A stretch of 64,000 nucleotides of DNA from Candidatus Entotheonellaceae bacterium. GTDB lineage: Bacteria > Tectomicrobia > Entotheonellia > Entotheonellales > Entotheonellaceae. Below, piece after piece: positions 898 through 9,025 of this stretch. Position numbers and translations under genes: made by a program. Within the stretch, counting starts at the first letter, position 1. Each line of letters opens with the position of its first letter. The DNA lies in the NCBI GenBank assembly GCA_965238075.1, contig OZ250173.1, positions 896,001-960,000 of the forward strand, in the 5' to 3' direction. Below the pieces are notes generated by a model. The model saw only the letters and a list, made by a program, of their open reading frames with translations, was not told the DNA's origin and did not search any database.

Positions 898-2166
898 ATG
901 GCGATTGCCTTGGTTGGGCTCAATCACACGACGGCGCCGGTGGCCGTTCGGGAACGCCTGGCGTTTTCCGACGCCGCGCTCGCCGACGCCCTGACGACGT
1001 TCCGGACGCCGGAGGTCGAGGAGCTGGTGATCCTGTCCACCTGCAATCGGGTCGAGTTTTACATGCAGGGCCGCGACGTGGCGGCTTGCAACTCGGGGTG
1101 CGAGAGTTTCCTGGCCGCCTATCACGCCTTGGCCCGAGAAGACTTCGCTCCCTGCCTCTATTATCTGAGCGAGTTGGAGGCGGTGCGCCATTTGTTTCGC
1201 GTCGCCGCCAGCCTGGATTCCATGGTCCTGGGCGAGCCGCAAATCCTCGGCCAGGTGAAATCCGCCTACTACGCCGCCCGCGATGCCGGCAGAACCGGCA
1301 CCATCTTCCACCATCTCTTTGAACGCACCTTCAATGTCGCCAAGGCCGCCCGTAGCGAAACGGGTATCAGCGACCACGCCGTGTCCGTCAGCTACGCCGC
1401 GGTGCAATTGGCGAAGAAAATCTTCGAGGATCTGCGTCGCCACACGGTTATGATTCTTGGCGCCGGCGAAACCTCGGAGTTGGCCGCGCGCCACTTCGTC
1501 CGGCAGGGGGTGGGTGAGGTCTTCGTGGCGAACCGCACGACGGCGCGCGCCGAAAAGCTGGCGCAGAGCCTCTCCGCCAAGGCTATCCCCTGGGACGAGT
1601 TTCCCGAACACCTGGCGCAAACCGATATTGTCGTCAGCTCGACCAGCGCCCCGAACCTCGTCATCACGCCCGGCATGGTGCAGGAAGCCATGCGGACGCG
1701 GCGCGGGCGCTCCATGTTTTTCATCGACATTGCCGTGCCGCGCGATATCGACCCGGCAGTCAACGCGCTGGAAAACGTTTTCCTCTACGACATCGACGGC
1801 CTGGAAAACGTCGTGGCGGCCAATCGCCGCGAACGCCAGCAGGAAGCGCTGGCGGCTGAGGATATGATCTGGCAGGAAGTGCGCCACTTCCGACAATGGC
1901 TCGCCACCCGCGACGTGGTGCCGACCATCGTGGCGCTGCGGCAACAAGCGGAAGCAACGCGGCTGCGCGAACTTGACAAAGCCCTCGCCAAGCTGGGACC
2001 GCATGACGAGCGGCAGCGTCGTGTCATCGAGGCCCTGACGGTGGCGATTACCAACAAATTCCTGCACGCCCCGACGGTGCACCTGAAGCGCTGCGCCAGC
2101 GCCGGGCAGGCGCAGAACGAAGCGCAACTCCTCCGTGATCTCTTCGATCTGGACCCCTCGCCGTGA
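898..2166 (+). CDS. hemA: Glutamyl-tRNA reductase
   Basis: GLNHTTAPVAVRE, LSTCNRVE, LDSMVLGEPQILGQVK, GAGE and DIAVPRDID motifs; RBS GAGGAGG at 881-887 before ATG 898. Confidence 0.97.
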   Translation: MAIALVGLNHTTAPVAVRERLAFSDAALADALTTFRTPEVEELVILSTCNRVEFYMQGRDVAACNSGCESFLAAYHALAREDFAPCLYYLSELEAVRHLFRVAASLDSMVLGEPQILGQVKSAYYAARDAGRTGTIFHHLFERTFNVAKAARSETGISDHAVSVSYAAVQLAKKIFEDLRRHTVMILGAGETSELAARHFVRQGVGEVFVANRTTARAEKLAQSLSAKAIPWDEFPEHLAQTDIVVSSTSAPNLVITPGMVQEAMRTRRGRSMFFIDIAVPRDIDPAVNALENVFLYDIDGLENVVAANRRERQQEALAAEDMIWQEVRHFRQWLATRDVVPTIVALRQQAEATRLRELDKALAKLGPHDERQRRVIEALTVAITNKFLHAPTVHLKRCASAGQAQNEAQLLRDLFDLDPSP

Positions 2167-3086
2167 CACCCCCAAAGGCCCACGTTCGTATCGGAACCCG
2201 CGGCAGTCCGCTGGCCCTCTGGCAAGCGCGCTGGGTGGCAACGGCCCTGCAACACCACCACGCCGGATTGCGTACTGAAATCGTCGTCATTAAAACAGCG
2301 GGCGATCGCAACCGCCACGACCCGTTGCCGCAGATCGGCGGCAAGGGACTGTTCGTCAAGGATATCGAAGAGGCGCTCCTGCGTGGGGAGATCGAGGTGG
2401 CGGTGCACAGTATGAAGGACATGCCAACGGACCTGCCGGAGGGGCTGCACGTCGGTGCCGTGCCGCCGCGCGCCGAGGTGCGGGACGCGTTCGTCAGCAA
2501 GGACGGCCGGCGGCTGACACAATTCGACGGGCCGTGGCGTATCGGCACCGGCAGCCTGCGTCGGCAGGCCCAGTTGCTGGCCTTCTCCGAGGCGCTACAG
2601 GTCTGCGACCTGCGCGGCAATGTTGACACCCGGCTGCGCAAACTGCGCCAGGGCGACGTCGACGGCGTGGTGCTGGCAGCGGCGGGCCTGAGCCGCCTGG
2701 GTTTGGCGTCGGAAATCACCGAATTGCTGCCCATTGACGTGATGCTGCCAGCCGCGGGGCAGGGCGCTCTGGCGCTGGAAACGGTTGCCGGGCATTGGGT
2801 GGACGACCTGTTGGCGCCGTTGAACGATACCGCCACGGCCAGCACCGTTGCCGCCGAGCGCGCCGTGCTCCGGCATCTGGGCGGCGGCTGCAGCGTGCCC
2901 ATTGCCGTGCTCGGCCAGTGCCAGGATGAGCACCTGCACGTGCAAGCCCTGGTCAGCAGCCCCGACGGTAGGCGCGCGCTGCGCCGGGAGATCACCGGCC
3001 CGCTCGACCAAGCCGTACCGCTCGGCGAACGCTTGGCCGCGCAGTTGCACGCCGACGGCGCCGGTGACATTCTGCAAGCGCTTTAG
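2163..3086 (+). CDS. hemC: Hydroxymethylbilane synthase
   Basis: IGTRGSPLALWQA, GGKGLFVK, AVHSMKDMP, GTGSLRR, LRGNVDTRL and LGGGCSVP motifs; GTGA overlap with hemA. Confidence 0.97.
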   Translation: MTPPKAHVRIGTRGSPLALWQARWVATALQHHHAGLRTEIVVIKTAGDRNRHDPLPQIGGKGLFVKDIEEALLRGEIEVAVHSMKDMPTDLPEGLHVGAVPPRAEVRDAFVSKDGRRLTQFDGPWRIGTGSLRRQAQLLAFSEALQVCDLRGNVDTRLRKLRQGDVDGVVLAAAGLSRLGLASEITELLPIDVMLPAAGQGALALETVAGHWVDDLLAPLNDTATASTVAAERAVLRHLGGGCSVPIAVLGQCQDEHLHVQALVSSPDGRRALRREITGPLDQAVPLGERLAAQLHADGAGDILQAL

Positions 3087-3188
3087 CCGAGAACCCTTAC
3101 GGTTTCTCCCTGAACACTCATTTAAATGTAGACATGCTCGCCAGCCTCCAAATGAACCCCTAGCGGCGCAGTGAAGCCCAGGACACAC

Positions 3189-6100
3189 ATGATGGAATTC
3201 GTTGATCTCCAACGGCAATTTCACGACGTGCCAAGAGACGCTGAACTCGAAGAGACGGAGCACCTTGTCTCATTAAGTGAACATGAATCCGGCCCGAGTT
3301 TCGGCTGGTCCAAGTTGTTGGAGTCTATGCGGGTGGTCCTTCTCGCCGAGGCGGGTAGCGGGAAAACCAAGGAGATGGAAGAACAGGCGAAACGCCTCGC
3401 TCAAGAGGGACGGTTCGCGTTTTTCGTGGCGTTGGATGACCTGGAACGAGAGCGTGTGGTCCACATCCTCTCGCCGGACGAGGAGGAGAGCTTCAAACGG
3501 TGGAGAGCGAATGGCCAAGAAACGGCTTGGTTTTTCCTCGACGCGGTGGATGAGTTGAAGCTTACCGGAGGAAAGCTCGGCCGCGCGCTTAATCGACTCT
3601 CAAAAGACCTGAATGGTCTCCTCGATCGTGCCCGAGTAATCATCTCCTGTCGTCCCAGTGACTGGCGCCCCATCGTGGACTTGGACACGGTCCAGAATGC
3701 ACTGCCGGTGCCGCAGAGAAGCGGCCACGCTTCCCTTCAACCATCCGAGGAAATGTTCATCCAGGCGCTCAGGAAAGACTTCGGCCACACGAGCCCTTAT
3801 CGCGACGAAGGCGAAGACTCCGCGGATCGCGAAGGCGTACGAATCGTAAGAATGCTTCCGATGAACCGTACGCAGATCAGGCTCTTCGCGGAACAATCCG
3901 GCGTGAACGACGCGGCGGGCTTTCTCAATGAAATCGACCGAGAGAATGCCGGGACCTTCGCCCAACGGCCCTTGGACTTGAGCGATCTGATCACGGCGTG
4001 GATAAACTCGAGTTGCCTCGGCACTCGGGCACAGCAGCACGAGGCAAACGTCGCGGCCAAGCTGAAGGATGGCCCTGATCGACCCGACAGCGGCGTTCTC
4101 CCCGACGCCAAGGCTCAGCTTGGGGCAGAACGCCTTGCGCTTGCCTTGGCCCTCACCCGCACACGGACCATCCGATCCCCCGAACAGGCGCCGGACATCC
4201 GATCGGCGAAAGGCATTCTTGATGCTGCAGACATCCTTACCGACTGGACGGAAGCGGAACGTCAGGCGCTGCTTCGACGCGCTCTTTTCGATCCCGCGAC
4301 CTACGGGCGCGTTCGCTTCCATCACCGTTCCGTTCAGGAGTATCTCGCTGCTCGACGCCTGCGTGCCCTGCGCGAAGACGGTATGTCCACAAAGGCATTG
4401 TTCCGTCTGTTGTTCGCGGAACGCTACGGCGTCAAGGTGGTGCTACCCTCGATGCGCGCGATCACTGCATGGCTCGCTCTCTGGGATGATGCCGTACGCA
4501 AAGAACTGATCGAGCGCGAGCCGGAAACGCTGATCTCTTTTGGCGATCCGGGGACACTCGACCTTGCCACGCGAAGCGACCTCCTGCGAGCGTTTGTTGG
4601 CAGGTACGGCCAGGGAGATTGGCGCGGCCTGGATTTCACAATCGACAACGTCCTCAGGCTGTCACACCCGGAACTCGCACCGGTAATACGAGAATGTTGG
4701 GGAGACGAGCCGGCGAACCACGATGTTCGTGGCTTGCTGCTTCAATTGATTTGGCAGGGATCGATCAGGGATTGTGCGGATTTGGCTGATGTTGCTGCCC
4801 GCAAAACGGATTGGGACCCCGCCCATCGGATTGCCGCGGTCCGAGCCCTTCTGGCCTGCGGATGCGACGACAGCGTTCGCGAGCTAGCGAACGAGATGCT
4901 GGCCTATCCGGAGTCCTGGCCCGCTGAAATCGTGTACGGCGTCGCGTCGGATCTGTTTCCGGACATCATCACGGTCAAAGAGTTGGCCACGCTGATTGAG
5001 GAGTGGCCCCGCGAATCAGACCAAGTGGCTCGGGACTTTGATTGGGCATTGCGGCAGATCGTCCAGACTATCGAGCCTGGGTCGGCGCAGGCCGTCGACC
5101 TGCGGGGAAAATTGGTAGACCTCATCTGGCACGGACGCGAGGAAACACAGGGACTATACGATATCCGAAGCGAGTTTGAACACCTTGCGCCGGAACTCGC
5201 AAGGTTGTGCGAACGGCAGTTGCCCGAGGTTTCACGCAGCCCTTCCGACGAATTGATCCGCGCCTGCGTCATCGCCTGCCGATTTGGTGGCAAGGAATCG
5301 GGCAGGCAGGAGCCGGTTGGCAGGCTTAGGACGCACTTCGACACGAACTCAAACTGGCGAAACGATGCCTTTTGGGCTGAGTTGGCATTCATGGACAAGG
5401 TCGTCCCGTCTGACGACGACCGGTTACGACTCCATCATGTGGAGATGGATGGCCTTGTAGGTGCCCTCGTGGATGCAGACCGGCCCTGGCTCGAAACAGC
5501 CCTCGAAGACGAGAGCCGCCCGGAACGACAAGTCGTTGCCCTTCATGCCCTCTTGCGGGGCTGGCTTCGACGAGCGGGAGCTGCGTCGGAACTTGATCGT
5601 CTTCGTGCGAAGTTTAAGGACGCCACGTCCTTCGGACGGGTCTTGGCGGAATGGACAGCGTGGCGCGAGCAGGACGAAAAAGTCAAAAGGATGGAACAAA
5701 AGGCGCGGGTTGCAGCCGGTGCTCGGGACGACCGTGAAGCGCAGCGCCTGGAAGATTGGAAGAAGTGGCGTAAGGAAATGCTTGTCGATCCTGCTGACGC
5801 CTTCTCGGCGGAAAAGTTGAAAAGCACGATACACAACCTATACCAGTGGCTCCGTGCAGCCAGACCAAACCAGAGTCGTTACGGCTTGTGGGACAAGGAC
5901 GCGCTGGTACAGGCATTTGGGTTGGAAGTCGTCAACCTCGCCGAGACAGCGTTCCAAGAATTCTGGCGTACTACTCTGCCAATCCTGTGGTCCGCGCGGC
6001 CGGTCAACGAGAGCGGCAGTACGCCCCATGACTGGATTTACGGACTTCAGGGGCTCCTCGCAGAGGCTTCAAAGCCAGGCTGGACGGCTGCCTTGTCCCC

Positions 6101-7628
6101 TGCCGAGGCCCGCACGGCAACGGCTTACGCCACCATCGAATGGAACGGCTTCTCGCCCTTCATCTCGGATTTGGCGGAATTCCATCCCCAGGAAGTGGAG
6201 GCGGTGATTGGCGGCGAAGTGAGTGCGGAACTGAGGGTCGGGGGTTCTCACAGTCAGCTGTCAACCCTCCAGAATCTCGTGTATGCGGACAGTAACCTCA
6301 AACGACTTGTCATCCCTCGTCTGATAACTGAACTGGAATCGTGGCCCGAGCCCTGCACGGAGGATTCGGGGCCGAACCTGGCGCACCATCTCGATCACGT
6401 ACTACGCATTCTGCGCAACGCAAATGATGGGGCGGACCGGGGAGCAATCGCGCAGATGTGTGCCCATCGGTACGAAGCCGATCCAACCGGCCCACTGGCA
6501 CTAAATTGGCTCAGGGGGTTGTTCCAGTTTGATGCGGTACGGGGGACGCAGGCTTTGATCGGACAATTCGCGGACGGCAATGACCCCGGCACTCGCAAAC
6601 GCGCGGTCGAGACACTCGCCGCACTGTTTGGTGGGCGCGACCCCATTGGTTTCGAGATCACGGATACGGGTCAACGCGCTCGTCTCCTTGGTCAACTTGT
6701 CCGGTATGCCTACGCGTTCATCCGACCAGAGGAAGATGAGATTCACGAAGTGGTGTATACACCGAACGCACGGGATAACGCTGAAACGGCTCGGAACTCC
6801 CTGCTCTCCTGGTTACTCGACACGCCTGGAGCCGAGGCCCGCCGTATCGTCCTGGAACTCGCTGAGGAGCAGGATTTCGCGCACTGCAAGGATCGGCTGC
6901 GGCTACTGGCTCGGCAACGAGCGGCCACTGACGCTGAGTTTCCACCGTTTGATGCCAAGGACGTAACTGACCTTGAAGATCGTTACGAGGCTCCTCCGAA
7001 AGACAGGGATGGCCTGTTTGCCGTTATGATGGATCGGCTGGACGACCTCCAACATGACTTCGCCCACAACGATTTCTCAGATCGGCGAACGGTTCAGAGA
7101 ATCGACGCGGAATCGGAGATGCAACGCACGCTTGCCCGGCGAATCAAGGAGAAAGCGAACGGTGCCTACTTGGTAACGCGGGAAGAAGAGGTAGCCGATG
7201 GGAAGCGTACCGACATTCGGCTCTCGACTACCAAGGGTGACCAGAAAGCCGTAATTGAAGTGAAGATCGCGGACAAGGGCTGGACATTGACCAATTTTGT
7301 ACAAGCCCTCCGGGACCAATTGGTAGGGAAGTATTTACGACATGCGAACTGCAAGGCCGGTTGCCTGTTACTGACTTATCACGGAAAAAAGAAGCACTGG
7401 GAACACCCTGAAACCAAAGAACGAATCAAGTTTCCAGAACTCGTTACAATTCTGAAAGACAAAGCGCAGGCTCTTGAGGCGGAAACCCAATATGATGTTC
7501 GCATTGCAGTGTTTGGCCTCGACCTAACCGACCCAACGCCCAATAATCCTGGCTTTGAAGAAAGGATGGCCAAAGCCGAAGACGTCATCGGCCGCTATCG
7601 CAATACGCTGCACGTTTTGGCCAAGTGA
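3189..7628 (+). CDS. Large STAND/NACHT-like ATPase with C-terminal PD-(D/E)xK nuclease domain and antitoxin-like tail (putative anti-phage protein)
   Basis: Walker A AEAGSGKT, Walker B WFFLDAVDE, sensor IISCRP, winged-helix motif RFHHRSVQEYLAA, long helical middle region, C-terminal REEE..KRTDIRL..IEVKIAD; start may be GTG 3171 or ATG 3189/3192. Confidence 0.8.
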   Translation: MMEFVDLQRQFHDVPRDAELEETEHLVSLSEHESGPSFGWSKLLESMRVVLLAEAGSGKTKEMEEQAKRLAQEGRFAFFVALDDLERERVVHILSPDEEESFKRWRANGQETAWFFLDAVDELKLTGGKLGRALNRLSKDLNGLLDRARVIISCRPSDWRPIVDLDTVQNALPVPQRSGHASLQPSEEMFIQALRKDFGHTSPYRDEGEDSADREGVRIVRMLPMNRTQIRLFAEQSGVNDAAGFLNEIDRENAGTFAQRPLDLSDLITAWINSSCLGTRAQQHEANVAAKLKDGPDRPDSGVLPDAKAQLGAERLALALALTRTRTIRSPEQAPDIRSAKGILDAADILTDWTEAERQALLRRALFDPATYGRVRFHHRSVQEYLAARRLRALREDGMSTKALFRLLFAERYGVKVVLPSMRAITAWLALWDDAVRKELIEREPETLISFGDPGTLDLATRSDLLRAFVGRYGQGDWRGLDFTIDNVLRLSHPELAPVIRECWGDEPANHDVRGLLLQLIWQGSIRDCADLADVAARKTDWDPAHRIAAVRALLACGCDDSVRELANEMLAYPESWPAEIVYGVASDLFPDIITVKELATLIEEWPRESDQVARDFDWALRQIVQTIEPGSAQAVDLRGKLVDLIWHGREETQGLYDIRSEFEHLAPELARLCERQLPEVSRSPSDELIRACVIACRFGGKESGRQEPVGRLRTHFDTNSNWRNDAFWAELAFMDKVVPSDDDRLRLHHVEMDGLVGALVDADRPWLETALEDESRPERQVVALHALLRGWLRRAGAASELDRLRAKFKDATSFGRVLAEWTAWREQDEKVKRMEQKARVAAGARDDREAQRLEDWKKWRKEMLVDPADAFSAEKLKSTIHNLYQWLRAARPNQSRYGLWDKDALVQAFGLEVVNLAETAFQEFWRTTLPILWSARPVNESGSTPHDWIYGLQGLLAEASKPGWTAALSPAEARTATAYATIEWNGFSPFISDLAEFHPQEVEAVIGGEVSAELRVGGSHSQLSTLQNLVYADSNLKRLVIPRLITELESWPEPCTEDSGPNLAHHLDHVLRILRNANDGADRGAIAQMCAHRYEADPTGPLALNWLRGLFQFDAVRGTQALIGQFADGNDPGTRKRAVETLAALFGGRDPIGFEITDTGQRARLLGQLVRYAYAFIRPEEDEIHEVVYTPNARDNAETARNSLLSWLLDTPGAEARRIVLELAEEQDFAHCKDRLRLLARQRAATDAEFPPFDAKDVTDLEDRYEAPPKDRDGLFAVMMDRLDDLQHDFAHNDFSDRRTVQRIDAESEMQRTLARRIKEKANGAYLVTREEEVADGKRTDIRLSTTKGDQKAVIEVKIADKGWTLTNFVQALRDQLVGKYLRHANCKAGCLLLTYHGKKKHWEHPETKERIKFPELVTILKDKAQALEAETQYDVRIAVFGLDLTDPTPNNPGFEERMAKAEDVIGRYRNTLHVLAK

Positions 7629-8014
7629 CGGAACCGGTTTGGATTGAAACGCGGGACGTGCTGGAACTGCACGACCGCCTTCTTGCGTTGGACGGTGGCG
7701 CAACAGGGTTACGTGACAACGGCTTGCTACAATCCGCTCTGGCGCGGCCACGGCAACTTTACGCCTACGCGGATAATCCCAATCTCATCGACATGGCGGC
7801 GGCATACACGGCTGGTATCCTCCGCAATCATCCATTCTTCGATGGTAACAAGCGCACAGGATTCGTGGTCGGTATTCTGTTTCTCGAGTTGAATGGTTAT
7901 AACTTCATTGCTACGGAGGAGGCCGCGACTCAGGCTGTTATAGAACTGGCCGCCGGCACATTCGACGAAGCGGGTTACAGCGCGTTCCTTCGCGCAAATT
8001 CAGAGGCGAAATAG
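7625..8014 (+). CDS. doc: Doc-type (Fic/Doc family) toxin
   Basis: 129 aa; H..LL..DGGATGLRD.GLL.SALARP and catalytic loop HPFFDGNKRTG (Doc-type NK); GTGA overlap with upstream stop. Confidence 0.92.
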   Translation: MTEPVWIETRDVLELHDRLLALDGGATGLRDNGLLQSALARPRQLYAYADNPNLIDMAAAYTAGILRNHPFFDGNKRTGFVVGILFLELNGYNFIATEEAATQAVIELAAGTFDEAGYSAFLRANSEAK

Positions 8015-8041
8015 GCAAGGTTCACAGCAAGGAGGCAGACC

Positions 8042-9025
8042 ATGCGTTTCCCAGCATACCGGGCGCGTCGGTTGCGTGAGCGGCAAGGGTGGCGCCGTTT
8101 GGTGCAAGAGACGACGTTGAGCCCGAGCGATTTCATCTACCCCATGTTCATCACGCCGGGCAGCCGAGTGCGCCAGGAGATTTCCTCGCTGCCCGGCCAG
8201 TATCACCTGTCCGCCGATATGGCTGTCGAGGAGGTCAAGGACGTCGCAGACCACGGCATTCCAGCGGTGCTGCTTTTCGGCCTGCCCGAGAGCAAGGACG
8301 CCGTTGGCAGGGAGGCGTACAGCGCCTCTGGCGCGGTGCAGCAGGCGATTCGGGCCATGAAGAAAGCCGTGCCCGACTTATTGGTGATCACCGATGTGTG
8401 CCTGTGCGAATACACCGACCACGGCCACTGCGGCGTCGTGGAAGGCGAGCACATCGCCAACGACGCAACCCTGGACCTGCTGTGCCGCACCGCGCTTTCG
8501 CACGTCGAAGCCGGCGCCGACATGGTGGCGCCGTCTGACATGATGGACGGCCGGGTACAGGCCATCCGCGCCAGCCTCGACGGCAAGGGCTACGCGCAAA
8601 TTCCCATCATGGCATACGCTGCCAAGTACGCCTCGACCTTCTACGGCCCCTTCCGGGAGGCCGTACAGTCGGCGCCGCAGTTCGGCGACCGGCGTTCCTA
8701 CCAGATGGCGCCGCCCAACGCCCGTGAGGCGTTGCGGGAAGTGCGGCTCGACATCGAAGAAGGCGCCGACATCGTCATGATCAAGCCGGCCCTACCCTAC
8801 CTCGACATCATTGCACGGGTTCGGCAGACAACGGACGTTCCCCTGGCGGCCTACAACGTCAGCGGCGAATACGCCATGATCAAAGCGGCGGCGGCGAACG
8901 GCTGGCTAGACGAGTCGCGCGCCATCCTCGAAGCCCTGACCAGTATCAAGCGCGCCGGGGCCGACATGATCCTCACCTATCACGCCAAGGAAGCGGTTCG
9001 TCTGCTCCCCACCCTGGACTGGTAA
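8042..9025 (+). CDS. hemB: Porphobilinogen synthase (ALAD), Zn-type
   Basis: DVCLCEYTDHGHCG, APSDMMDGRV, FYGPFREA, MIKPALPYLD and AYNVSGEYAM motifs; RBS GGAGG. Confidence 0.98.
   Translation: MRFPAYRARRLRERQGWRRLVQETTLSPSDFIYPMFITPGSRVRQEISSLPGQYHLSADMAVEEVKDVADHGIPAVLLFGLPESKDAVGREAYSASGAVQQAIRAMKKAVPDLLVITDVCLCEYTDHGHCGVVEGEHIANDATLDLLCRTALSHVEAGADMVAPSDMMDGRVQAIRASLDGKGYAQIPIMAYAAKYASTFYGPFREAVQSAPQFGDRRSYQMAPPNAREALREVRLDIEEGADIVMIKPALPYLDIIARVRQTTDVPLAAYNVSGEYAMIKAAAANGWLDESRAILEALTSIKRAGADMILTYHAKEAVRLLPTLDW

What the first reader, a model, noticed from the sequence alone, without database searches (positions are those of the whole stretch)
3189..8014. STAND ATPase-nuclease fused to a Doc-antitoxin tail and coupled to a Doc toxin: candidate NLR-guarded toxin defence system
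Seen: after the nuclease domain (…VFGLDLTDP) the STAND ORF continues in frame for 30 aa, TPNNPGFEERMAKAEDVIGRYRNTLHVLAK (7536-7628). Its TGA overlaps the GTG start of a Doc gene with an intact HPFFDGNKRTG loop. No separate antitoxin ORF lies upstream of doc. Knowledge, recalled rather than searched: small AbrB/MazE-type antitoxins preceding such doc genes end in a 'TPYDP.FE..M..AE.I...YRN.L..LAK' helix. In the P1 Phd-Doc model, the antitoxin C-terminal helix alone neutralises Doc, an EF-Tu kinase. Inference: the toxin-binding helix, without its DNA-binding domain, is grafted onto an NLR-like phage sensor. Doc could be held inactive by the sensor and released on activation, oligomerisation or cleavage, acting as a second effector beside the nuclease. 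Alternative: a one-off deletion fused two neighbouring genes and was tolerated because the neutralising helix survived.
Basis: partly seen in the sequence, partly recalled or inferred. Interest (0 to 1): 0.85.

Follow-up and report, generated by a model that had tools for sequence, protein, structure and literature searches.

The report
Immune sensor carrying a Doc-antitoxin tail
A large bacterial anti-phage sensor protein ends in the short toxin-neutralising tail of an antitoxin and is followed by the matching Doc toxin gene, so the sensor itself appears to serve as the toxin's antidote; this arrangement is conserved in one group of uncultured bacteria.

Summary
ORF 3171/3189-7628 is an NCBIfam HyoA-family NACHT antiphage protein (1354 bits, cut-off 1200; the model ends about 30 residues before the stop). 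Its last 30 aa (7536-7625) are 73-87% identical to the C-termini of 75-aa MazE/AbrB-type (PF04014) antitoxins. An intact doc (7625-8014) overlaps the stop by GTGA.

The fusion is neither an artefact nor unique. Eighteen of 120 listed HyoA clusters carry the exact 30-aa tail and form the closest group to this protein. Four species of one Tectomicrobia genus carry it at the same hemC|hemB site. The other HyoA homologues lack both the tail and doc.

The tail is the only antitoxin-like sequence in the genome and is more conserved than the adjacent HyoA sequence. A complex model places it on Doc's catalytic loop (score 0.91, best control 0.61). Doc has dN/dS 0.19 between the two intact copies, but is broken in 2 of 4 species.

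A second graft of the tail, with a different junction, sits on an FRG-TPR defence candidate in the same genus.

Best reading: HyoA acts as Doc's antitoxin. Whether sensor activation releases Doc is untested.

The parts
2163..3086 (+). left flank: hemC-like gene (porphobilinogen deaminase by my reading of the sequence; no family search was run)
   Evidence: ORF. In G009 and G010 its homologue (89-91% identity) lies about 60 nt from hemB with nothing between them.
3127..8030 (+). inserted two-gene cassette (hyoA-tail plus doc); boundaries are approximate
   Evidence: Comparison of the filled site (G000) with the empty sites of G009 and G010. Homology ends after ...CTGAACAC (about 3126) and resumes at ...AAGGAGGCAGACCATG (about 8030).
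3189..7628 (+). hyoA-tail fusion gene (1479 aa from ATG 3189; the frame is also open from GTG 3171)
   Evidence: NCBIfam NF058534 antiphage_HyoA, 1354.1 bits against a cut-off of 1200; residues 13-1453 align to model positions 1-1428 of 1430. The database holds the 1479-aa form as P0029.
3333..3674 (+). NACHT P-loop NTPase region (residues 55-168; Walker A GSGKT, Walker B-like LDAVDE)
   Evidence: Pfam NACHT E 1.7e-4, 21.9 bits, below the gathering score of 26.7. The motifs are read from the translation and are invariant in alignment A1.
6993..7535 (+). C-terminal PD-(D/E)xK-like nuclease domain (residues about 1275-1455; D1348, E1363, K1365)
   Evidence: D, E and K are invariant in 33 homologues. 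AF2 model mean pLDDT 85.5. Best structural matches are restriction-endonuclease folds: BamHI Z 8.0, rmsd 4.1, 140 aligned; also OkrAI, BstYI, BglII, Can2, FokI. These Z values are middling.
7536..7625 (+). grafted antitoxin tail, 30 aa: 7-aa linker TPNNPGF, then one helix
   Evidence: It lies beyond the HyoA model. It is 73-87% identical to the C-termini of 75-aa PF04014 antitoxins. It forms a helix at model residues 221-245. All confident chain-1 contacts with Doc fall in the tail. Tail length is exactly 30 aa in 23 of 23 fused sequences.
7625..7628 (+). GTGA start/stop overlap (translational coupling inferred)
   Evidence: Read directly. The same GTGA overlap is seen in G008, G011 and G007 and in the FRG-TPR fusion.
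7625..8014 (+). doc toxin gene (129 aa)
   Evidence: Pfam Fic/DOC 9.3e-20; TIGR01550 6e-19. P1 Doc structures 3k33, 3dd7 and 3kh2 match at E 2e-11 to 4e-10. dN/dS 0.19 between G000 and G008.
7829..7861 (+). Fic/Doc catalytic loop HPFFDGNKRTG
   Evidence: Read. H69, F71, D73, G74, N75, K76 and R77 are invariant in 43 Docs. G74, K76 and R77 are among the modelled contacts with the tail.
8042..9025 (+). right flank: hemB-like gene
   Evidence: ORF. Homologues of 92-97% identity lie directly after hemC in G009 and G010.

Best explanation
This is a chimeric toxin-antitoxin pair riding on a defence gene. A canonical module (a 75-aa AbrB/MazE-type antitoxin plus Doc) lay directly downstream of a HyoA-family NACHT / helical-sensor / PD-(D/E)xK antiphage gene. 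A deletion removed the antitoxin's DNA-binding domain and joined its 30-residue Doc-neutralising C-terminus in frame to HyoA's last residues (...GLDLTDP|TPNNPGFEE...).

Since then the 1479-residue HyoA has been Doc's only antidote. Doc is translated by coupling at the GTGA overlap and sits on HyoA's C-terminal helix with its catalytic loop covered. While Doc is intact, the tail cannot be lost, and neither can any part of the hyoA reading frame upstream of it. The pair therefore behaves as a dead-man switch tied to HyoA. Doc, by homology an EF-Tu kinase that stops translation, is freed when HyoA stops being made, is truncated, or is destroyed.

Shown: homology of the tail, its conservation, absence of any other antidote, purifying selection on Doc, and the cassette as a unit. 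Inferred: the deletion origin, binding and neutralisation in the cell, translational coupling, and the conditions of release.
For: Tail homology:
- The tail lies beyond the HyoA family model.
- It matches the C-termini of PF04014 antitoxins at 73-87% identity.
- In 80 metagenome doc loci (43-82% identity), most carry a short upstream frame ending ...TPYDPxFExKMxKAEDIIxRYRNTLHxLAK directly before doc, and none is fused to HyoA.

Distribution:
- Of 120 listed HyoA clusters (of 449 at E<=1e-5), 18 have the full tail and one (P0047) a truncated tail. These are the clusters closest to the query. The other 101 end ...GLDLTDP plus short variable ends.
- Among 58 HyoA loci from one-genome-per-species contigs, Doc or the tail is found only in those of the window's genus.
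- Four species share the same site. Two species of the genus have the empty site, and the insert holds only these two genes.

Conservation:
- The tail is 30 aa in 23 of 23 fused sequences.
- Its helix part has mean pairwise identity 0.857, against 0.674 for the 30 HyoA residues before it (19 distinct sequences).
- The fused-tail consensus is almost the same as the free-antitoxin consensus.

Neutralisation:
- There is no other antitoxin in the genome.
- Complex prediction: score 0.91, best of 3 controls 0.61. That mark was reached by 58 of 80 solved complexes and 2 of 110 mismatched pairs. The runs agree in at least 48% of contacts and the partner's pLDDT is at least 88. Confident chain-1 contacts all lie at 1453-1478 (the tail), and the Doc contacts include G74, K76 and R77.
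- In print (passages read in PMC10440598), a Phd-C element fused to SUMO alone neutralises a Doc toxin, so a carrier-borne tail can suffice.

Doc maintained:
- dN/dS is 0.19 for the two intact copies.
- Intact 129-aa Docs of 83-95% identity share their longest-contig length with 8 further fused-HyoA clusters.
Against: - Doc is damaged in 2 of the 4 species. G011 has a 1-nt deletion (it could be an assembly error) and a 3-nt insertion. G007 has a TGA at codon 10 plus a 1-nt insertion, and its hyoA is also interrupted. The toxin is therefore dispensable and is being lost in places.
- Tail dN/dS from three genome pairs is noisy (0.30, 0.86, 0.20 over 30 codons).
- The complex model may score from likeness to the solved P1 Phd-Doc complexes, and one control reached 0.61.
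- No ancestral hyoA | antitoxin | doc arrangement was found anywhere, so the deletion origin is inferred only.
- Toxicity of this Doc and its rescue by HyoA are untested.
Confidence: 0.6

Rival explanations
1. Sensor-gated second effector. Doc is a latent effector parked on HyoA. Phage sensing, NTP-driven oligomerisation, or clustering of the adjacent nuclease domains dislodges the tail from Doc. Translation arrest then acts beside DNA cleavage.
For: - Everything that supports tail-Doc binding also applies here.
- The tail starts 7 residues after the last strand of the effector domain.
- Doc is under purifying selection in a vertically inherited chromosomal site. Addiction alone does not explain that, because addiction protects the antidote and not the toxin.
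- A second graft with a different junction, in the same genus, sits on another sensor-like defence candidate: FRG + TPR, PADLOC PDC-S15 4.3e-24.
- The cassette consists of exactly these two genes.
- In print, Ernits et al. propose that non-neutralising antitoxin domains are sensory (passage in PMC10440598).
Against: - No result here bears on release.
- 101 of 120 listed HyoA clusters work without any tail or Doc.
- HyoA stays intact in G011 while its doc is frameshifted, and the FRG-TPR fusion in G009 has a broken doc.
- Defence genes and TA modules share islands, so chance fusions would tend to involve defence genes anyway.
Confidence: 0.2
2. Decaying relic. The fusion was a tolerated accident. 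Doc is weak, poorly expressed or already inactive in most lineages, and the tail persists only because too little time has passed.
For: - Doc has lesions in G007, G011 and G009.
- P0047 has a truncated tail.
- Chimeric proteins exist in which the same tail follows unrelated N-terminal parts (P0019, P0026, P0271, P0299, P0300). This shows that such deletions recur.
Against: - The clade has diverged to 67-88% HyoA identity, with dS 0.29-0.71 between species. Even so, 23 of 23 tails keep exact length, and their helix part is more conserved than the neighbouring HyoA sequence.
- Doc dN/dS is 0.19 and its catalytic residues are invariant.
- At least 10 lineages keep a full-length Doc.
Confidence: 0.12
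3. The tail has been co-opted for a HyoA-internal role, such as autoinhibition or oligomerisation, and Doc is an unrelated passenger.
For: The AF2 model places the tail as a helix of moderate confidence, block-mean pLDDT 74-87.
Against: - The tail's conserved positions mirror those of free Doc antitoxins.
- All confident modelled contacts of Doc are with the tail.
- In the loci of the four species of the genus read here, the tail is followed by doc or a doc remnant.
Confidence: 0.05

Closest known systems
Canonical AbrB/MazE-type antitoxin plus Doc type II TA modules (for example P0008 and P0012, 'putative addiction module antidote', and the G003 pair in L072)
   Same: The last 30 residues are 73-87% identical. 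The same 4-nt start/stop overlap with doc is present. The Doc subfamily is the same, at 69-82% identity.
   Different: The 45-residue swapped-hairpin DNA-binding domain is absent (no PF04014 match in the last 242 aa). A 1455-residue NACHT antiphage protein takes its place, so operator binding by the antitoxin cannot occur.
Phage P1 Phd-Doc (PDB 3k33, 3dd7, 3kh2)
   Same: Doc is homologous (E 2e-11). A C-terminal antitoxin helix is modelled over the Doc catalytic loop. That Phd neutralises this way is from passages in PMC10440598 and from recall.
   Different: The tail shows no sequence match to Phd; P0008 has no PDB match covering its tail. Phd is a small, labile YefM-fold repressor, whereas here the carrier is a large immune-type ATPase.
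PanA_Phd-C:Doc and the engineered SUMO-Phd-C (Ernits et al. 2023, PMC10440598; passages read)
   Same: In both, a linear Doc-neutralising element is appended to a domain that does not itself neutralise, and a fusion to an unrelated carrier suffices. The authors suggest the carrier domain is sensory.
   Different: The carrier here is a validated-family antiphage NLR-like protein with its own nuclease effector, not a Panacea domain. The case is natural and conserved, not engineered.
HyoA (NCBIfam NF058534) and bacterial NACHT / Avs-type single-protein antiphage sensors
   Same: Full-length match above the curated cut-off. The architecture is NACHT plus a helical region plus a C-terminal PD-(D/E)xK domain.
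   Different: The other HyoA homologues seen (101 of 120 listed clusters; 54 of 58 species loci) have neither the tail nor a neighbouring Doc. I found no paper that uses the name HyoA, so its antiphage status rests on the NCBIfam label.
Fused toxin-antitoxin defence proteins such as CapRel (recalled, not searched)
   Same: An antitoxin element is covalently joined to a protein with a sensing role in phage defence.
   Different: In CapRel, toxin and antitoxin are in one chain. Here the toxin is a separate protein and the antitoxin element is joined to a different, complete defence protein.

Membership tests
HyoA (NCBIfam NF058534, equivalog) | Full-length score above the curated cut-off (1200 bits) | tested here: met
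   1354.1 bits; residues 13-1453 align to model positions 1-1428 of 1430.
HyoA (NCBIfam NF058534, equivalog) | NACHT P-loop NTPase with Walker A and Walker B | tested here: met
   GSGKT and LDAVDE are present and invariant in A1. The Pfam NACHT match alone is below its gathering score (21.9 against 26.7 bits).
HyoA (NCBIfam NF058534, equivalog) | C-terminal nuclease-type effector domain | tested here: inconclusive
   D/E/K are invariant in 33 homologues. The best fold matches are PD-(D/E)xK endonucleases at Z 8.0 or lower. Foldseek found nothing at E<=1e-3.
HyoA (NCBIfam NF058534, equivalog) | Protection against phage | not testable with these tools
   This rests on the family label only. No paper was found.
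Doc toxin (TIGR01550 / Pfam Fic-DOC) | Family score above the cut-off and the catalytic motif HxFx(D/N)(A/G)NKR (motif form recalled) | tested here: met
   TIGR01550 68.4 bits against 38.65; Pfam 71.7 bits against 24. HPFFDGNKR is present and invariant in 43 homologues.
Type II toxin-antitoxin module (Phd/Doc type) | Separate small antitoxin gene directly upstream of the toxin | tested here: not met
   There is no separate antitoxin ORF. The antitoxin-like segment is the end of a 1479-aa protein.
Type II toxin-antitoxin module (Phd/Doc type) | Antitoxin DNA-binding domain for autoregulation | tested here: not met
   No PF04014 or other DNA-binding family is found in the last 242 aa or in the whole protein.
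Type II toxin-antitoxin module (Phd/Doc type) | Toxin-neutralising segment that binds the toxin | tested here: inconclusive
   Homology to antitoxin C-termini is shown. The complex model supports binding (score 0.91, best control 0.61) but does not demonstrate it.
AbrB/MazE/SpoVT antitoxin (PF04014) | Swapped-hairpin beta-barrel domain | tested here: not met
   The free relatives have it (P0008 residues 6-50, E 1.3e-7). The fusion retains only residues equivalent to 46-75.
PADLOC-catalogued defence systems | Match of HyoA to any PADLOC v2 model | tested here: not met
   There are 0 families for P0001. Doc matches only candidate families PDC-M59B and PDC-S23 weakly.

The most novel reading that the evidence does not exclude
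Sensor-tethered toxins form a small class. In this Tectomicrobia genus, the Doc-neutralising tail was joined at two different junctions to the C-termini of two different immune-type sensors: HyoA (NACHT-nuclease) and an FRG-TPR protein of the PDC-S15 candidate family. Each sensor therefore doubles as the antitoxin. Doc would be a latent translation-arresting effector. It would be released either when the sensor is activated or when a phage destroys, inhibits or shuts off the sensor. That would make it a back-up that punishes anti-defence and also penalises mutational loss of the sensor gene.
Probability: 0.25. Interest if true: 0.85.

Novelty: new variant of a known kind. Interest (0 to 1): 0.68.

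Why it matters
Type II antitoxins are thought of as a DNA-binding domain plus a linear neutralising element, and laboratory work shows the element alone works on an inert carrier. Here nature has put that element on a complete NLR-like antiphage protein and kept it, with its toxin, across a diverged clade. A second such graft sits on another defence-type protein in the same genus.

If the sensor controls Doc, this links two large fields, toxin-antitoxin modules and STAND/NLR immunity, through a simple and testable physical connection. It would show how a second effector or an anti-anti-defence trap can be bolted onto an existing sensor.

If Doc only makes hyoA addictive, it is a clear natural example of a toxin enforcing retention of a costly defence gene at the level of its reading frame. 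Either outcome can be tested with four or five constructs in E. coli.

Tried and rejected
- Pfam on the tail alone (42 aa) and on the last 242 aa gave nothing relevant. The tail lies outside the PF04014 model, so this says little.
- Foldseek against the PDB gave no match at E<=1e-3 for the C-terminal model. The VIA wide search was used instead.
- Literature: 'HyoA'/'EruA', 'Hyo'+'Eru'+'phage', and 'Hyo'+'defense system'+'NACHT' found nothing relevant. 'NACHT'+'antitoxin'+'death on curing' found 0 papers. Supplements were not read.
- Earlier findings of the scan: nothing near this place, and no finding holding the antitoxin words.
- The promoter/terminator scan of 2900-8200 gave counts no higher than in shuffles.
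- Tail dN/dS from three pairs was too noisy to use.
- The JGI metagenome scan with Doc returned only loci with Docs of 82% identity or lower. Most had short antitoxin frames upstream, and no further fused loci appeared, so Doc integrity in 7 fused clusters stays unknown.
- RNA: a 220-nt contig in a metatranscriptome library (X17) spans 7486-7705 with 1 difference, and X19 covers 7749-8100. Contigs in RNA libraries do not show transcription, so I make no expression claim.
- The near-identity of the doc core among the four species is not shared with the FRG-linked or canonical docs, so gene conversion from the paralogue does not explain it.
- The careful tree search did not finish, so only a quick tree is reported.
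- Rejected: an assembly artefact, a normal HyoA C-terminus, and a fusion unique to this genome.
Full report
**Observation**

The window holds a + strand ORF, 3171..7628 (1485 aa from GTG; 1479 aa from the ATG at 3189). It ends ...VFGLDLTDPTPNNPGFEERMAKAEDVIGRYRNTLHVLAK. A 129-aa ORF, 7625..8014, starts at a GTG that overlaps the TGA of the first ORF. The second ORF is a Doc toxin: Pfam Fic/DOC 9.3e-20, TIGR01550 6e-19, and P1 Doc structures at E 2e-11. It carries HPFFDGNKRTG at 7829-7861.

No other ORF in 7379-8136 has a Pfam match. The 3.35-Mb genome has one doc. It has no antitoxin-like sequence other than the tail (E 3.1e-12; next best 0.57).

**What the large protein is**

NCBIfam places it in NF058534, 'NACHT domain-containing antiphage protein HyoA', at 1354 bits (cut-off 1200). 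Residues 13-1453 cover model positions 1-1428 of 1430, so about 30 residues lie beyond the family model. Pfam sees only a sub-threshold NACHT match at residues 55-168. PADLOC v2 has no model for it.

The last domain has an invariant D...ExK (D1348, E1363, K1365) in 33 homologues. That alignment used 33 rows. They came from the window plus 40 tblastn rows. I dropped three duplicates (L001, L002, L070), four rows with stops (L040, L056, L057, L058), and L050.

An AF2 model of residues 1240-1485 (pLDDT 85.5) has an alpha/beta core followed by a single helix formed by the tail. Foldseek found nothing at E<=1e-3. An all-against-representatives structural search ranks restriction-endonuclease folds first (BamHI Z 8.0, rmsd 4.1, 140 aligned; then CdiA-CT, OkrAI, BstYI, Can2, BglII, LlaBIII, McrC, FokI). 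These Z values are only middling.

I could not find a paper that uses the name HyoA. The antiphage label therefore rests on NCBIfam.

**What the tail is**

A search with residues 1444-1485 among shorter proteins returned 26 hits at E<=0.01:
- Five are fragments of HyoA-like proteins with the same junction (81-100% identity).
- Most of the rest are 75-aa PF04014 (MazE/AbrB) proteins, several labelled 'putative addiction module antidote'.
- The last 30 residues of those free antitoxins are 73-87% identical to the tail; for example, P0008 ends ...LTPYDPGFEERMAKADDIIGRYRNTLHVLAK.

The 31-aa tail alone, scored against 1.84 billion representatives, found 41 proteins at E<=1e-3.

In 80 metagenome loci holding Docs of 43-82% identity, most have a short upstream frame. 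That frame ends with this motif directly before doc, and none is fused to HyoA. The fusion retains only the equivalent of antitoxin residues 46-75; the swapped-hairpin DNA-binding domain is absent.

**Distribution**

A search with residues 1186-1485 gave 449 proteins at E<=1e-5, of which 120 were listed:
- The 18 best (70-100% identity, including the window's own) cover the query to its end and carry the tail.
- P0047 has a truncated tail (...DPMPNDPPLI).
- The remaining 101 end ...GLDLTDP followed by short, variable sequences.

A scan of one-genome-per-species contigs returned 58 HyoA loci from many phyla. tblastn found Doc or the tail only in the loci titled Candidatus Entotheonella or Tectimicrobiota, that is, the window's genus. 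No hyoA | antitoxin | doc intermediate was seen.

Only 17 genomes of the phylum are held. HyoA occurs in 4 of the 6 genomes of the genus, G000 included, always between hemC and hemB. G009 and G010 have hemC and hemB about 60 nt apart. The insert in G000 (about 3127 to 8030) contains only hyoA-tail and doc.

Contigs from two sequencing studies bridge the junction.

**Selection**

All 23 fused sequences keep a tail of exactly 30 aa. In 19 distinct sequences, the helix part of the tail has mean pairwise identity 0.857, against 0.674 for the 30 HyoA residues just before the tail. Its consensus is almost the same as that of free antitoxins.

HyoA body dN/dS is 0.27-0.29, with dS 0.29-0.71 between species. 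The 30-codon tail gives noisy values of 0.30, 0.86 and 0.20. Doc dN/dS is 0.19 between the two intact copies (G000 and G008) and 0.16-0.47 overall.

Intact 129-aa Docs of 83-95% identity share their longest-contig length with 8 further fused-HyoA clusters (823628, 223663, 28741, 62152, 15406, 14076, 63178, 5883). With G000 and G008, that makes at least 10 lineages with a full-length Doc. For 7 clusters no pairing was possible.

Evidence against constant need for Doc:
- G011's doc has a 1-nt deletion (CCCAAT to CCCAT) and a 3-nt insertion.
- G007's doc has a TGA at codon 10 and a 1-nt insertion.
- In G007, hyoA is also interrupted: homology stops at window 5000 on one contig and resumes at 6841 on another.

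**Binding model**

I sent the fused C-terminal domain (residues 1234-1479 of P0029) with a 15-row alignment. That alignment used 15 of the 18 tail-bearing clusters; P0031, P0033 and the fragment P0044 were left out. Doc was sent with a 43-row alignment.

The result was score 0.91, best of 3 controls 0.61. That mark was reached by 58 of 80 solved complexes and 2 of 110 mismatched pairs. The runs agree in at least 48% of contacts and the partner's pLDDT is at least 88.

All confident contacts on the HyoA side lie in residues 1453-1478, which is the tail. On Doc they include G74, K76 and R77 of the catalytic loop.

Phd-Doc complexes are solved, so the pass may reflect likeness to them. It supports binding but does not show it.

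In print, a Phd-C element fused to SUMO neutralises a Doc toxin, and Phd-derived peptides inhibit Doc (passages of PMC10440598; abstracts of PMC9207808 and PMC10728895 in the listing).

**A second graft**

In G011 and G009, a 556-aa protein ends ...FYVELSWPPDDPTLETKMAKAEGIMGRYHNTLQILAK. It has an FRG domain (2.6e-15), TPR repeats, and a match to the PADLOC candidate family PDC-S15 (4.3e-24). It is overlapped, again by GTGA, by a Doc 75-77% identical to the window's (77%, 75% in alignment A3). That Doc is intact in G011 and broken in G009.

Its junction differs from the HyoA junction. In a quick tree of 63 Docs, the HyoA-linked clade (SH-aLRT 97) and the FRG-linked clade (99) are sisters at support 87. 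The careful search did not finish. The two grafts therefore come from related TA lineages, and a shared origin of the tail-doc unit is not excluded.

Other proteins carry the tail behind unrelated N-terminal parts:
- P0019: YCII domain.
- P0026: no family match.
- P0271: an unrelated N-terminal part plus the last ~150 aa of HyoA.
- P0299 and P0300: other unrelated N-terminal parts.

Many are singletons from short metagenome contigs and may be artefacts.

**Interpretation**

The best-supported reading is that HyoA has become Doc's antitoxin (confidence about 0.6).
- Origin: an in-frame deletion between neighbouring genes. This is inferred, because no intermediate was found.
- Retention of the tail: explained by addiction.
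- Long-term retention of an intact, constrained Doc at a vertically inherited chromosomal site: addiction does not explain this, which suggests a benefit. The benefit could be stabilising the hyoA reading frame or acting in defence.

Whether Doc is released actively on sensing (about 0.2), only passively when HyoA is lost or depleted, or hardly at all (relic, about 0.12) cannot be decided from sequence. Repeated Doc decay and the many tail-less HyoA homologues show that HyoA does not need Doc.

**Comparison and novelty**

Each part is known: the HyoA family, the Doc toxin, the AbrB-type antitoxin tail, and the principle that a linear neutralising element works on a foreign carrier. The natural, conserved joining of such an element to an NLR-like antiphage protein, with the toxin retained as a separate coupled gene, is not described in any paper my searches reached. 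I class it as a new variant of a known kind.

It is not a member of the canonical type II TA class. It lacks a separate antitoxin gene and a DNA-binding domain; both features were tested and not met. It most likely works like one.

Noticed in passing
L082:4634-6693 (G011:C1:693633-695692) and L083/L075 (G009): A second graft of the same antitoxin tail sits on a 556-aa FRG + TPR protein (PADLOC candidate PDC-S15). A GTGA-overlapping Doc follows it, intact in G011 and broken in G009. The junction differs from the HyoA fusion.
   Followed up: partly
window 7799-7930: The doc core (44 codons around the catalytic loop) shows almost no synonymous divergence among the four species (dS 0-0.066). This compares with 0.19-0.42 in the 5' part of doc and 0.29-0.71 in hyoA. 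The FRG-linked and canonical docs do not share this DNA identity. The cause is unknown; nucleotide-level constraint or recent recombination are possibilities.
   Followed up: partly
window 2163-3086 | 8042-9025; L089, L090: The cassette sits inside what looks like a hemA-hemC-hemB gene row. Two species of the genus have the empty site with a 60-nt spacer. A loose end in an RNA-library contig (X17) reads the empty-site form.
   Followed up: yes
P0271, P0299, P0300, P0019, P0026: Metagenome proteins in which the same tail follows unrelated N-terminal parts. One (P0271) keeps only the last ~150 aa of HyoA plus the tail. They may be survivors of deletions or assembly and gene-calling artefacts.
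   Followed up: partly
L005/L034 and L007/L070 (G007 contigs C3 and C18): In G007, hyoA homology stops at window position 5000 on one contig and resumes at 6841 on another, with unrelated sequence beyond both break points. Its doc is also broken, so the whole module seems to be decaying there.
   Followed up: partly
P0047: A close relative (73% identity in the last 300 aa) ends ...GLDLTDPMPNDPPLI. This is the start of the tail cut short, as if by a frameshift or a stop.
   Followed up: no
L008/L010 (G011:C1:1036530-1040255), L009 (G007:C26), L006 (G012:C144): Further, more distant NACHT proteins of about 1330-1410 aa in related genomes match the HyoA model weakly (E 3e-30 to 6e-51). L009 ends without the tail. 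L006, L008 and L010 gave no tail or Doc match by tblastn.
   Followed up: no
window 7519-7547: A sigma-70-like match (TCGACC, 17 nt, AATAAT) lies exactly at the body/tail junction, upstream of doc. The number of such matches in the region (2) is not above the shuffled expectation (1.3).
   Followed up: no
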